13,719 nucleotides of DNA from a virus (taxonomy: Duplodnaviria > Heunggongvirae > Uroviricota > Caudoviricetes). Shown here in pieces: positions 1-6,000 of this stretch. The stretch lies in IMG/VR virus record IMGVR_UViG_2850761752_000002; one strand, 5' to 3'. Position 1 is the first letter of the stretch, and every line of letters starts with the position of its first letter. The position numbers were made by a program.

Positions 1-3000
1 TTAAACCCATTCCTGACCTCGAGTATCGTTATAGCGATCGGTGGTTGCCTGGACTTTATGTCCTAGTAATGTTTTTGTATCGATACCCTGTGCACGGTAC
101 AGCCGTTCTGATAGAGAGCGTTGTTCATGAAATGTTGGCGGAGTTTTTCCTGCTGGTGGAATTATCCCAGCCAGATCCCGTGCTTTGGCAAAGTAGTCGC
201 TCAGGTTGTCTTTACTCATCGGCTTCGGTTGTTTCTGGTGCCGACTATGGATTAGATATGGACTTAATATTCTGTCTCGGCACCCATCAATAACTTCTTT
301 TAACGTTATCCCAATGGCATCACAGCGTAGTGTAAGCGGTAACGCCAGACGCATTCCGGTTTTTCCCTGGGTGATATGCAAGTGTTCGTTCCACACATCT
401 GAAAAACGCATGTGGCAAATGTCATCACGGCGCTGACCAGTAACAATCGCAAGAAGCATTGCGTTACGGATAAAGTGTTTTTCAGGCGTTGCATTGTAAA
501 TTTTTTGCCAGTCTTCCATGGTGAGCCTGGCTCTGGTTACTTTAGGGATCGGTTTACGGGTAGCCTCCGGAGGATTCCATCCAGGAGGAACTTCCCCTGC
601 ATGCTGTGCTTCTTTATAAATATCAACCCATAATCCACGATTTACTCTCGCTGTGCTGACCATGTCTTTATCCAGCCACTCATCCAGTATTAATGCAAAG
701 TCTCTTACTTCCAGTTCTTTCAATGGGTGGTTTCCCAGACGGGAAACCAGGTATGCAGCCATTCGAGTTTTTTCTTTGTGAGTTGTAGCTGCAATATCTC
801 CATTTTTCAGTCGCGTGTCCTGTATTTTCAGATATCGATCAACCCATGCCTTTAATCTGATACCCCGACGTTTTGTTGCTGACGGACTTTCATCAATTTT
901 GCGCATGAAATATTCAGCTTCTGCTGCAGCTATTCGCTGATTGGCTGTGGAAGCGATTTTTTCTGCCTTACCTTTGTCTGTTCCGAGTCCGTGAAATTTT
1001 CCAGTCACAGGATTTTTATACTGGTAGTAAACTCTGCCAGTTCTGCGATCAAACTTTTCGTAAAGACCGGCTACGTCAGTGCTGTTTTTTCGTGGCCTCG
1101 GTGACATGAGTTAAAATCTCCTTCAGTGCATCATCATCGCCAGTATGAATTTCCGGCGCAATTCCCGTTTCACCTGGCCCAACAAATACTGCTCGGCGAT
1201 CTATCAGCCAACGCCCACGAATTTTTTGTGGTCTTGGAACGATGTATCCTAGTTTTCCGTATTTCACCAGGGTAGTGTTTGTTATTGGGAGACTGAACCG
1301 TTTTGGTTTCCACTCGTCGAGCGGGTAATGCTGCCAACTTACTGATTTAGTGTATGATGGTGATTTTAAGGTGCTTGCGTGGCTTCCATTTCCATCAGAT
1401 GTCCTTCCTGCTCCGCTACTGAAGGCGTGGTGCGTAACGGCAAAAGCACTGCCGGACATCAGCGCTATCTCTGCTCTCATTGCCGTAAAACATGGCAACT
1501 ACAGTTCACTTACACCGCCTCTCAGCCCGGTACGCACCAGAAAATCATTGATATGGCCATGAATGGCGTCGGATGTCGCGCCAGTGCACGCATTATGGGC
1601 GTTGGCCTCAACACGGTTTTACGTCACTTAAAAAACTCAGGCCGCAGTCGGTAACCTCGCGCATATAACCGGGCAGTGATGTGATTGTCTGCGCTGAAAT
1701 GGACGAACAGTGGGGCTACGTCGGTGCTAAATCACGTCAGCGCTGGCTGTTTTACGCGTATGACAGGATACGGAGGACGGTTGTGGCGCACGTCTTCGGT
1801 GAACGCACTCTGGCCACACTGGAGCGTCTTCTGAGCCTGCTGTCGGCCTTTGAGGTCGTGGTATGGATGACGGATGGCTGGCCGCTGTATGAATCACGCC
1901 TGAAGGGAAAGCTGCACGTTATCAGCAAGCGTTACACTCAGCGCATTGAGCGACATAATCTGAATCTGAGACAACATCTGGCAAGGCTGGGACGGAAGTC
2001 ACTGTCGTTCTCAAAATCGGTGGAGCTGCATGACAAGGTCATCGGGCATTATCTGAACATAAAACACTATCAGTAAGTTGGAGTCATTACCCGCCGACTG
2101 CCTGGAATTTATCTGGTCGTTACCCGAAAATTCTGTTGACCTGATAGTCACGGACCCGCCGTACTTTAAAGTGAAGCCTGAGGGCTGGGATAACCAGTGG
2201 AAGGGCGACGATGATTACCTGAAGTGGCTGGAGCAGTGTCTGGCGCAGTTCTGGCGGGTGCTGAAACCTGCCGGAAGTCTTTACCTGTTCTGTGGTCATC
2301 GCCTGGCATCTGATATCGAAATCATGATGCGTGAACGCTTCAGTGTGCTGAACCATATTATCTGAGCGAAGCCGTCCGGACGCTGGAACGGATGCAACAA
2401 GGAAAGCCTGCGGGCGTATTTCCCCGCCACAGAGCGCATTCTGTTCGCGGAACATTATCAGGGGCCGTACCGCCCGAAAGATGATGGCTATGAGGCGAAG
2501 GGCAGTGCACTGAAACAGCATGTGATGGCCCCGCTGATTTCTTACTTTCGTGATGCGCGAGCTGCCCTGGGGATAACGGCAAAACAGATTGCAGATGCCA
2601 CAGGAAAGAAAAACATGGTGTCGCACTGGTTCAGTGCCAGTCAGTGGCAGTTGCCGAATGAAAGCGATTATCTGAAATTACAGGCGCTGTTTGCCCGGGT
2701 GGCAGAAGAGAAGCATCGGCGTGGTGAACTGGAAAAGCTCCACCACCAGCTGGTGGATACGTATACCTCACTGAACCGGCAGTATGCGGAGCTGCTGAGT
2801 GAATATAAACATCTGCGGCGGTATTTTGGCGTGACGGTGCAGGTGCCGTATACCGATGTGTGGACGCATAAACCGGTGCAGTTCTATCCCGGGAAACATC
2901 CGTGCGAAAAACCGGCAGAAATGCTGCAGCAGATAATCAGCGCTAGCAGTCGTCCGGGTGACCTGATTGCAGATTTTTTCATGGGGTCGGGTTCGACAGT

Positions 3001-6000
3001 GAAAGCGGCACTGGCGCTCGGGCGTCGTGCAATTGGCGTTGAGCTGGAGACTGAACGTTTTGAGCAGACGGTTCGGGAAGTACAGGATTTAGTCAGCCAG
3101 AACGGATGATATTGAAGAATTAATTACGCGTCGTTATTATGCGGCTCCCGGCCCTTTAGCTCAGTGGTGAGAGCGAGCGACTCATAATCGCCAGGTCGCT
3201 GGTTCAAATCCAGCAAGGGCCACCATCACATACCGCCATTAGCTCATCAGGAAAGAGCGCCAGCCTTCGAAGCTGGCTGCGCGGGGTTCAAGTCCCCGAT
3301 GGCGGTCCATTATCTGCATCATGCGTTGTTAGCTCAGCCGGACAGAGCAATTGCCTTCTAAGCAATCGGTCACTGGTTCGAATCCAGTACAACGCGCCAC
3401 ACTTATTTTCCCTGGCTCGCTTTTGCGGGCTTTTTTTTTAAATGTCTCACAATTCAGACGGTTGACTGTTGTCTGGTTTGCGGGGAGTTTGTTAAAAGAA
3501 ACTGGCATGGTGAATCCCCCTGTGCGGAGGGGCAATCAGCGAGTAGGTATATGGGATAATCGCGGATTCAGGTGCTGGTACTGAATTCACCGGGAGGCAC
3601 CCGGCACCATGCAATGGCACATAGCGCCACTCTCCAGCCCCTCTCCGGAGGGGCTTTCTTGTGGGCAAAAAAAGCCCGCGCTGGGAGACGCGGGCGGCAA
3701 GGAATAAACAATAAAACGTGAAGTAATATTTCAGCTGGCGAATAATACCCCATAGTAGTCACTCTGCGCAACTGCGCGGTCTTTTTCGAATTGCGGGCTG
3801 TCGTCTCTCTTCTGCCATTGTCCTGTAACTTCCGGACTTCAGCCCGCTCCTCATTTTACTCACAATATTATCCCGGCCGGGAGGATTCATGGCTTTTAAA
3901 CACTATGATGTTGTCAGGGCGGCGTCGCCGTCAGATCTTGCGGAAAAGCTGACACATAAACTGAAAGAGGGCTGGCAGCCGTTTGGTAGTCCGGTGGCCA
4001 TAACCCCTTATACTCTGATGCAGGCGATTGCAGCAGAAGGTGCAGTAATCAGCGCCACCAGCGACCCGGAGTATTACTTTGTTGTGGTTCTGGCAGGGCA
4101 GTCAAACGGCATGTCGTATGGTGAAGGCCTTCCGCTGCCGGGGACATATGACCGTCCGGACCCGCGTATTAAGCAACTGGCGCGTCGCAGTACGGTGACA
4201 CCGGGCGGTGCAGCATGCAAATATAACGACATCATTCCGGCGGACCATTGTCTGCATGATGTGCAGGACATGAGCCGTCTTAACCATCCGAAAGCGGACC
4301 TGTCAAAGGGGCAGTACGGAACCGTGGGGCAGGGGCTGCATATCGCCAAAAAACTGCTGCCGTTTATACCGGCGAATGCGGGCATTCTGCTGGTTCCGTG
4401 CTGTCGTGGTGGTTCAGCGTTCACCACCGGAGCTGATGGCACATACAGTGACGCGAGTGGTGCCTCGGAGAATTCAACCCGCTGGGGTGTGGACAAGCCG
4501 CTGTATAAGGACCTTATCGGTCGAACAAAAGCGGCACTGGAGAAGAACCCGAAAAATGTGCTGTTTGCCGTGGTGTGGATGCAGGGGGAATTTGATTTTG
4601 GCGGTACGCCGGCAAATCATGCCGCACAGTTTGGTGCGCTGGTTGATAAATTCCGTGCAGACCTGGCGGATATGGCAGGCCAGTGCGTCGGTGGCTCTGC
4701 TGGCGGTGTTCCCTGGATATGCGGGGACACGACGTATTTCTGGAAGCAGAAGAACGAATCCACGTACCAGACGGTGTACGGCAGCTATAAAAATAAAACG
4801 GAAAAGAATATCCATTTCGTACCGTTCATGACCGATGAGAACGGGGTGAATGTGCCGACGAACAAACCGGAAGAAGACCCGGACATTCGGGGTATCGGTT
4901 ATTACGGTTCGAAATGGCGTGACAGCTCAGCCACCTGGACGTCACAGGACAGGGCGAGCCATTTCTAGACTGGCCCCCTGAATCTCCAGACAACCAGTAT
5001 CACTTAAATAAGTGATAGTCTTAATACTAGTTTTTAGACTAGTCATTGGAGTACAGATGATTGATGTCTTAGGGCCGGAGAAACGCAGACGGCGTACCAC
5101 ACAGGAAAAGATCGCAATTGTTCAGCAGAGCTTTGAACCGGGGATGACGGTCTCCCTCGTTGCCCGGCAACATGGTGTAGCAGCCAGCCAGTTATTTCTC
5201 TGGCGTAAGCAATACCAGGAAGGAAGTCTTACTGCTGTGGCCGCCGGAGAACAGGTTGTTCCTGCCTCTGAACTTGCTGCCGCCATGAAGCAGATTAAAG
5301 AACTCCTGAACCGCCCCGGGTTTCCTGGAGAGTGTTTTATCTGTGAACTCAGGCTGCCAGATCATCGTTTCCGATGGAAGCATAATAAGCTTTTTCTGCT
5401 TCTGCCGGAGGGATGTGGCCCAGCCTTTCCAGCAATCGTCGATTATTATACCAGTCCACCCACGTGAGTGTGGCCAGTTCCACTTCTGCACGGTTTTTCC
5501 AGCTCTTACGGTGTATTACCTCCGCTTTGTAAAGACCATTGATGCTCTCCGCCATCGCGTTGTCATACGAGTCGCCTGTACTTCCTGTTGATGCCAGTAA
5601 TCCGGCTTCCTTAAGCCGCTGTGTGTAGGCCAGCGATACATACTGAGAACCTTTATCACTGTGATGGACCGTGCCGGACGGTCGACGGGCCCATAACGCC
5701 TGCTCCAGAGCATCCAGCACGAATGTCGTTTCCATGGACGATGAGACCCGCCACCCCACGATGTATCCGGCAAACACATCAATAATGAACGCCACATAGA
5801 CGAAGCCCTGCCATGTGCTGACGTAAGTAAAATCAGCCACCCACAGCTGGTCAGGTCGTTCTGCCACGAACTGACGGTTTACGCGGTCGCCTGCGGCAAC
5901 GGCTTTCCGGCTGATGGTCGTACGGACCTTTTTACCCCGGAGAACACCGGCAAGTCCCATAACCGCCATGAGACGTGCCACAGTGCATCTGGCCACTCTG

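What the first reader, a model, noticed from the sequence alone, without database searches (positions are those of the whole stretch)
2078..3109. Methyltransferase gene with a single in-frame TGA in an otherwise intact 344-codon frame
Motif IV (DPPY) and motif I (FxGxG) lie in the same frame on either side of one TGA at 2363-2365, with no other stops. This is either a very recent nonsense mutation that silences a prophage methylase, a sequencing error, or low-level UGA readthrough. A silenced orphan methylase matters for host-restriction evasion and epigenetic phenotype.
Basis: seen in the sequence. Interest (0 to 1): 0.4.

Follow-up and report, generated by a model that had tools for sequence, protein, structure and literature searches.

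The report
Twice-broken prophage methylase pseudogene in Shigella
The stop codon is real, but it lies in a methylase gene whose start an IS1 insertion sequence had already removed, inside a decayed Shigella boydii prophage, so this is ordinary gene decay and not a newly silenced working gene.

Summary
The TGA at 2363-2365 is real. It is a TGG(Trp)->TGA change (G2365A) in an invariant NHIIWAKP block of a beta-class adenine DNA methyltransferase. It is not a sequencing error, because the same allele occurs in dozens of independent Shigella boydii-clade assemblies, including Sb227. There is no sign of recoding. The frame is not "otherwise intact". Bases 2078-2091 are the right terminal repeat of a 768-bp IS1 (1324-2091), and homology to the intact 349-352-aa genes begins at 2092. 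The gene has lost its first 41 nt, its start codon and ribosome site. IS1 sequence replaces everything that lies upstream in homologous prophages, including gene Q. S. boydii CDC 3083-94 has the identical IS1/methylase junction but still has TGG, so the IS1 truncation came first and the nonsense mutation followed in an already headless gene. The repaired protein is about 93% identical to M.EcoGII, the non-specific prophage adenine methylase, which is reported as not expressed in lysogens even when intact. The neighbourhood is a prophage remnant with four IS copies in 13.7 kb. Verdict: an already-deposited, ordinary pseudogene of low interest.

The parts
1..1107 (-). Lambda-type prophage integrase (368 aa), at the edge of the prophage next to chromosomal potC/potD-cobB-nagK
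   Evidence: Pfam Arm-DNA-bind_1 plus Phage_integrase; flanking genes in the source genomes
1108..1323 (-). Open frame upstream of int with no start codon, cut off by IS1; possibly a 5'-truncated xis-like gene (inferred, no homology search run)
   Evidence: Minus-strand frame LDEWKPKRF...WLIDRRAVF...KEILT is open, has no start and runs into IS1; gene callers extend it into IS1 with no Pfam hit
1324..2091 (+). Complete IS1 element (768 bp; insA 1379-1654, insB 1681-2076) with no target-site duplication, marking a deletion or recombination junction
   Evidence: Pfam Zn_ribbon_InsA, HTH_Tnp_IS1 and DDE_Tnp_IS1; terminal inverted repeats located at 1324 and 2091, flanking 9-mers CGTCGAGCG and CGCCGACTG differ
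2078..2091 (+).
   Evidence: Alignment to intact genes diverges exactly here; the same bases end IS1; no Shine-Dalgarno sequence upstream
2092..3109 (+). 5'-truncated remnant of an M.EcoGII-family beta-class N6-adenine DNA methyltransferase gene (corresponds to codons 14/15-352 of intact 352-aa homologues)
   Evidence: Pfam PF01555 at 145.7 bits; 96-97% DNA identity to intact E. coli prophage genes from 2092 onward; 93% protein identity to M.EcoGII
2153..2164 (+). Catalytic motif IV, DPPY
2363..2365 (+). Nonsense codon TGA, derived from TGG (Trp) by G2365A; corresponds to Trp105 of the intact 352-aa protein
2978..2992 (+). AdoMet-binding motif I, FMGSG (FxGxG)
3150..3399 (+). Three phage tRNA genes (CAT anticodon, annotated tRNA-Ile in RefSeq homologues; Arg-TCG; Arg-TCT), conserved downstream neighbours of this methylase gene in lambdoid prophages
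   Evidence: ARAGORN; Rfam; RefSeq annotation of homologous loci

Best explanation
This is a dead remnant of a late-operon methyltransferase gene, a close relative of the non-specific adenine methylase M.EcoGII, in a degraded lambdoid prophage of the Shigella boydii clade. It carries two independent disabling lesions that arose in a known order. First, an IS1-associated deletion or recombination joined the right end of IS1 to nucleotide 42 of the gene. In homologous prophages the gene is preceded by Q and its own start signals; here IS1 replaces all of that, and its left end abuts the int-proximal region (shown). I infer that the whole early region, the late promoter and Q were lost in that event. 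Second, in a sub-lineage that includes Sb227 and this window, a G-to-A transition changed the invariant Trp codon in the NHIIWAKP block to TGA (shown). The second change most probably arose as neutral drift in a gene that could no longer be properly expressed (inferred). I expect no methyltransferase to be made (inferred). Neither fragment has a recognisable ribosome-binding site, and the catalytic DPPY motif and the AdoMet-binding FxGxG motif lie on opposite sides of the stop.
For: The TGA and the motifs are confirmed. IS1 is identified and its ends mapped at 1324-2091. Homology to intact genes begins exactly at 2092, in two independent searches of 5,426 E. coli genomes and in the base-level alignment, which also shows TGG in the homologues. 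The IS1 flanks are not a target-site duplication. The left flank is an int-proximal frame with no start codon. In intact prophages Q and a small ORF precede the gene. Trp is invariant in 123 of 123 homologues and aligns with IIW in solved beta-class methyltransferases. None of 1,616 places in 1,333 complete E. coli genomes has the TGA 80-mer, and the best differ by one base. None has the IS1 junction. The TGA allele is absent from species-representative genomes and JGI metagenomes, while the TGG control finds 3. The exact 95-aa and 194-aa fragments sit side by side in every place shown, across many Shigella assemblies including CP000036.1. CDC 3083-94 (CP001063.1) has the identical junction with TGG. 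Family identity rests. The same 13.7 kb holds three more IS copies and a truncated SASA esterase.
Against: The order of events rests on one genome (CDC 3083-94) with the junction but no TGA. In principle TGG there could have been restored by gene conversion from another prophage copy. A 6-substitution patch at 2470-2493 shows that such conversion does occur in this gene. 'No protein is made' is inferred from missing signals and was not measured; IS1 insertions have been reported to create promoters (from my own knowledge, not checked here). I could not check whether the same genome carries another, intact copy of the methylase.
Confidence: 0.93

Rival explanations
1. The TGA is a recent nonsense mutation that switched off a functioning orphan prophage methylase.
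For: The change is indeed a single TGG->TGA transition and the remaining frame is open. PGAP annotated the junction-bearing, TGG-containing version in CDC 3083-94 as a 343-aa DNA-methyltransferase.
Against: The gene lacks its first 41 nt and native start, and Q, which precedes it in homologous prophages, is not in the window. The only available start is a TTG inside the IS1 terminal repeat, with no Shine-Dalgarno sequence. The IS1 junction is shared with a lineage that lacks the TGA. Intact family members are reported as not expressed in lysogens anyway.
Confidence: 0.04
2. The TGA is a sequencing or assembly error and the real genome has TGG.
For: It is a single-base difference from all E. 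coli homologues.
Against: The identical 95-aa product ending at this TGA is indexed in 37 blocks of the collection and listed on 36 contigs. These include at least 15 complete chromosomes deposited under unrelated accession series, among them CP000036.1, CP011511.1, CP026811.1 and five CP1620xx records. They differ from each other elsewhere in the locus.
Confidence: 0.005
3. Programmed recoding: the UGA is read as selenocysteine, or is read through as Trp, to give low levels of full-length enzyme.
For: UGA is the leakiest stop codon in E. coli and is misread mainly as Trp, which is the ancestral residue (general knowledge, not tested here).
Against: There is no SECIS-like structure: the 63 nt downstream fold no better than shuffles (z = -0.55). 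Rfam finds nothing at the site. The ancestral residue is an invariant Trp, not Cys or Sec. No homologue in 5,426 E. coli genomes, the species representatives or the metagenomes uses TGA here. There is no translation start upstream for a ribosome to read through from.
Confidence: 0.01
4. Two genuine genes: a split methyltransferase whose N-terminal (DPPY) and C-terminal (FxGxG) polypeptides are made separately and assemble.
For: Gene callers call both pieces, 95 aa and 194 aa, and each hits PF01555. Heterodimeric and split methyltransferases exist in nature (general knowledge).
Against: Nearly all of the 120 listed homologues are single chains (about 100 of them 345-359 aa), and none ends at this position. 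There are 156 nt (53 codons) of methylase-homologous sequence between the TGA and the next in-frame start, so residues would be lost. No Shine-Dalgarno sequence precedes either piece. The split form occurs only in the one lineage that also has the IS1 truncation.
Confidence: 0.01

Closest known systems
M.EcoGII / M.EcoGI, non-specific N6-adenine methyltransferases of E. coli O104:H4 C227-11 prophages (Murray et al. 2018, PMC5778455)
   Same: The repaired protein is 93% identical (310/335) to the M.EcoGII sequence printed in PMC11551740 supplement file 5. It is 94.7% identical to the methylase of phage 1720a-02, which Murray et al. call 'very similar' to M.EcoGII. It has the same beta-class layout: DPPY, central TRD, FxGxG. 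It has the same kind of location, in a lambdoid prophage late region.
   Different: The window copy is a pseudogene: 41 nt are missing at the 5' end and there is a W105* nonsense codon. M.EcoGII is intact and active when cloned. Lack of sequence specificity was not and cannot be tested here, and about 7% of residues differ, mainly in the central region.
Methylase genes of Stx-converting and related lambdoid phages (Stx2a phages, phiP27, 1720a-02, mEp460, cdtI phage)
   Same: 82-95% protein identity over the full length. The gene order methylase, then tRNA-Ile/Arg/Arg, then SASA (NanS-p-like) esterase, then lysis genes matches homologous E. coli prophages.
   Different: Those genes are intact, with Q upstream. 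Here there is no Q, no stx, and the gene is decapitated and carries a stop.
IS-driven gene decay in Shigella (e.g. 'Gene Decay in Shigella as an Incipient Stage of Host-Adaptation', PMC3218036)
   Same: The source is the S. boydii clade. The lesion types match that pattern: an IS junction plus a point nonsense mutation, with four IS copies in 13.7 kb.
   Different: Nothing distinctive; this is one more example. I read only that paper's title and abstract.
Solved beta-class methyltransferases: M.RsrI (1eg2) and the methyltransferases 8urk/9c3u
   Same: The N- and C-terminal halves of PF01555 align (E 1e-20 to 1e-24), including the IIW block that holds the mutated Trp.
   Different: They are only distant relatives, with different central TRDs and different specificities.

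Membership tests
Beta-class N6-adenine/N4-cytosine DNA methyltransferase (Pfam PF01555 N6_N4_Mtase) | Domain match above the Pfam gathering score | tested here: met
   145.7 bits against a cutoff of 26.7, E 2.7e-42, residues 20-331 of the stop-masked translation
Beta-class N6-adenine/N4-cytosine DNA methyltransferase (Pfam PF01555 N6_N4_Mtase) | Motif order IV (DPPY), then TRD, then I (FxGxG) | tested here: met
   DPPY at 2153-2164 and FMGSG at 2978-2992 in the same frame
Beta-class N6-adenine/N4-cytosine DNA methyltransferase (Pfam PF01555 N6_N4_Mtase) | Uninterrupted, complete coding sequence (needed to be a functional member rather than a remnant) | tested here: not met
   TGA at 2363-2365 and loss of the first 41 nt and start codon
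M.EcoGI/M.EcoGII family of prophage adenine methyltransferases | High full-length sequence identity to M.EcoGII | tested here: met
   310/335 (93%). The reference sequence is machine-read from a supplement, so a few mismatches may be reading errors
M.EcoGI/M.EcoGII family of prophage adenine methyltransferases | Location in a lambdoid prophage, downstream of Q in the late region | tested here: inconclusive
   The downstream neighbours (three tRNAs, SASA esterase, lysis genes) match homologous prophages. The upstream Q region is absent because IS1 replaces it
M.EcoGI/M.EcoGII family of prophage adenine methyltransferases | Sequence-independent adenine methylation | not testable with these tools
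   A biochemical property, and the window copy cannot encode a full-length enzyme
IS1 insertion sequence | About 768 bp with insA and insB and terminal inverted repeats | tested here: met
   1324-2091; Pfam InsA and InsB domains; ends GGTAATG.../...CATTACC
IS1 insertion sequence | Direct target-site duplication flanking a simple insertion | tested here: not met
   The flanks CGTCGAGCG and CGCCGACTG differ, and the left flank is int-proximal while the right flank is methylase nt 42. The element therefore marks a deletion or recombination junction, not a simple insertion
Programmed UGA recoding (selenocysteine or readthrough) | Stable stem-loop (SECIS-like) just downstream of the UGA | tested here: not met
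   MFE -19.9 kcal/mol against a shuffle mean of -18.25, z = -0.55; no Rfam match
Programmed UGA recoding (selenocysteine or readthrough) | UGA, or Cys, conserved at the site in homologues | tested here: not met
   Trp in 123/123 homologues; no TGA allele in 1,616 E. coli places, species-representative genomes or metagenomes
Naturally split (two-subunit) methyltransferase | Homologues end at the same point, with a separately initiated downstream gene | tested here: not met
   Nearly all listed homologues are single chains, about 100 of them 345-359 aa. The next in-frame start is 53 codons downstream and has no Shine-Dalgarno sequence

The most novel reading that the evidence does not exclude
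The nonsense mutation may not be neutral drift. The IS1 event removed the phage regulatory region and placed a non-specific adenine methylase, reported as harmful when expressed constitutively, behind IS1, where it could be transcribed by readthrough from the TTG in the IS1 end. Killing the gene would then have been selected. On this reading the TGA in the Sb227 lineage and the second IS inserted 23 bp from the junction in CDC 3083-94 would be two independent ways of doing that.
Probability: 0.04. Interest if true: 0.3.

Novelty: already known. Interest (0 to 1): 0.07.

Why it matters
It matters little biologically: this is one more pseudogene in a Shigella lineage known for IS expansion and gene decay. 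The two fragments have been in public records as separate ORFs (for example ABB66525.1). There are two practical lessons. First, a frame that is open apart from one stop can still be headless, so the 5' end of the frame should have been checked against IS ends. Second, annotation pipelines have called the IS1-fused frame a 343-aa or 391-aa "DNA-methyltransferase" in CDC 3083-94, which is probably an over-call. For methylome work, I predict this locus contributes no methylation.

Tried and rejected
1. Exact look-up of the 195-aa GTG-started C-terminal ORF found nothing; the ATG-started 194-aa version did.
2. Exact look-up of P0002 failed; its cluster-mate P0121 gave the CDC 3083-94 locus.
3. 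I counted substitutions between the window and CDC 3083-94 to look for relaxed selection. There are too few, and six of them sit in one 24-nt patch that matches another prophage allele and is probably gene conversion, so no dN/dS conclusion is possible.
4. The promoter-like scan gave 4 sites against 2.4 expected from shuffles, which is not informative.
5. A literature search combining S. boydii, IS1, prophage, pseudogenes and methyltransferase returned nothing.
6. No supplement is held for the M.EcoGII paper; the sequence came from the SUPREM paper's supplement.
7. I did not run structure prediction. At 93% identity to a characterised enzyme it would add nothing.
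Full report
**Observation.**
The frame 2078-3109 translates with one internal stop, TGA at 2363-2365 (codon 96), plus the terminal stop. DPPY (2153-2164) and FMGSG (2978-2992) lie in that frame on either side of the stop. About 15.7 stops would be expected by chance, and the other two forward frames have 19 and 20. A single Pfam N6_N4_Mtase domain (E 2.7e-42) spans the stop.

- The frame is not otherwise intact. Bases 1324-2091 are a complete 768-bp IS1, with InsA at 1379-1654, InsB at 1681-2076 and terminal inverted repeats at both ends.
- The TTG "start" at 2078 and the next 11 nt belong to the IS1 right terminal repeat.
- Two searches of 5,426 complete E. coli genomes show that homology to methylase genes begins exactly at 2092.
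- A base-level alignment with two intact genes (352 and 349 aa) shows that the window lacks their first 41 nt (MLNTVKISSCELI plus 2 nt), the start codon and everything upstream.
- The 9-mers flanking IS1 differ (CGTCGAGCG and CGCCGACTG), so this is not a simple insertion.
- The left flank is an open frame next to the integrase gene with no start codon, possibly a truncated xis (inferred, no homology search run).
- In intact relatives the gene is preceded by the antiterminator Q and a small ORF. I infer that an IS1-associated deletion or IS1-IS1 recombination removed the prophage early region, Q and the late promoter.

**The stop codon.**
- Homologues have TGG here, so the change is G2365A.
- Trp is present in 123 of 123 homologues that cover the column, inside an invariant NHIIWAKP block.
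- The same IIW aligns in solved beta-class methyltransferases.
- None of 1,616 matching places in 1,333 E. coli genomes carries the window's 80-mer, and the best differ by one base.
- The TGA allele is absent from species-representative genomes and JGI metagenomes, while the TGG control is found.

**Not an error.**
- The exact 95-aa product (IS1 end to TGA) is indexed in 37 blocks of the collection, including at least 15 complete chromosomes, and is deposited as ABB66525.1 and others from Shigella.
- In every place shown, the 194-aa downstream fragment lies beside it.
- The window is 100% identical over 8,365 bp to GCA_000815725.1 and 99.87% identical to CP000036.1. CP000036 is cited together with S. 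boydii Sb227 in the literature.

**Order of events.**
S. boydii CDC 3083-94 (CP001063.1) has the identical IS1-repeat/methylase junction but TGG at the site. It is annotated there as a 343-aa protein beginning MESLPADCLEF. The TGA has never been seen without the junction. The IS1 truncation therefore came first, and the nonsense mutation arose later in a gene that was already headless. One caveat: a 24-nt patch of six differences at 2470-2493 matches another prophage allele, so gene conversion does occur at this locus.

**Rival readings.**
- Recoding has no support. The 63 nt after the UGA fold no better than shuffles (z = -0.55). Rfam has no hit there. The ancestral residue is Trp, not Cys.
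- Two genuine genes has no support. Nearly all listed homologues are single chains, about 100 of them 345-359 aa. The next in-frame start is 53 codons downstream, and neither piece has a Shine-Dalgarno sequence.

**What the gene was.**
- The repaired protein is 93% identical (310/335) to M.EcoGII as printed in a supplement of PMC11551740. That text is machine-read, so a few mismatches may be reading errors.
- It is 94.7% identical to the methylase of phage 1720a-02, which Murray et al. call very similar to M.EcoGII (PMC5778455).
- That paper reports that M.EcoGII methylates adenine in any sequence context, is not expressed in the lysogen, and harms the cell when expressed constitutively.

**Context.**
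The window is a prophage remnant next to potC/potD-cobB-nagK. In order, it holds:
- the integrase gene and the truncated frame beside it;
- IS1;
- the methylase remnant;
- three tRNA genes;
- an STnc100 sRNA match;
- a SASA esterase cut to 359 aa, against 617 aa in an intact E. coli prophage;
- an IS3-family element;
- lysis genes;
- an IS66-family transposase gene;
- a second, inverted and identical IS3-family copy.

**Verdict.**
This is an ordinary, already-deposited, doubly disabled pseudogene. Novelty: already known. Interest: low.

Noticed in passing
window 5349-6616 and 12452-13719: Two copies of an IS3-family element (108-aa OrfA plus 296-aa OrfB, each with an Rfam ALIL frameshift pseudoknot) form a 1,268-nt, 100% identical inverted pair 5.8 kb apart. 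Several other Shigella assemblies stop aligning with the window between about 5331 and 6638, so this segment is polymorphic, by IS gain, loss or rearrangement.
   Followed up: partly
window 3889-4968: The DUF1737 plus SASA esterase gene is cut to 359 aa. It is 617 aa in an intact E. coli prophage (L001) and 462 aa in two other Shigella strains (L010, L013). The truncation point therefore differs between strains.
   Followed up: partly
window 3476-3666: A strong Rfam match to sRNA STnc100 (139 bits, gathering score 47) lies between the tRNA genes and the esterase gene. In phage 1720a-02 a Shiga toxin gene follows the methylase gene at the corresponding position. This window has no stx.
   Followed up: no
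window 3150-3225: ARAGORN calls the CAT-anticodon tRNA 'Met', but RefSeq annotates the homologous gene as tRNA-Ile.
   Followed up: no
window 2470-2493: Six differences from the CDC 3083-94 allele fall within 24 nt. Four of them match the allele of an unrelated E. coli prophage (L002), which looks like a short gene-conversion patch between prophage copies and not independent mutations.
   Followed up: partly
L013 (CP001063.1) about 6100-6147: In CDC 3083-94 the IS1 is itself interrupted about 23 bp from its right end by different sequence; an HTH_Tnp_1 (transposase) gene is called on the opposite strand just upstream. The deposited 391-aa 'DNA methylase' ACD09190.1 starts inside that foreign sequence, and the 343-aa RefSeq protein starts at the TTG in the IS1 repeat. 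Both look like annotation over-calls of a truncated gene.
   Followed up: partly
P0001 (protein from a 2,026-bp Logan contig): This 386-aa homologue carries an internal tandem duplication of about 34 residues (YKHLRRYFGVT.QVPYTDVWTHKPVQ.YPGKHPC appears twice). It could be a real duplication or an assembly artefact between two prophage alleles.
   Followed up: no
window 11053-12327: An IS66-family transposase ORF (424 aa, minus strand) lies next to the second IS3-family copy, which begins at 12452. E. coli relatives of this region carry ISEc23 among terminase genes. I did not determine whether the IS66 element is complete.
   Followed up: no
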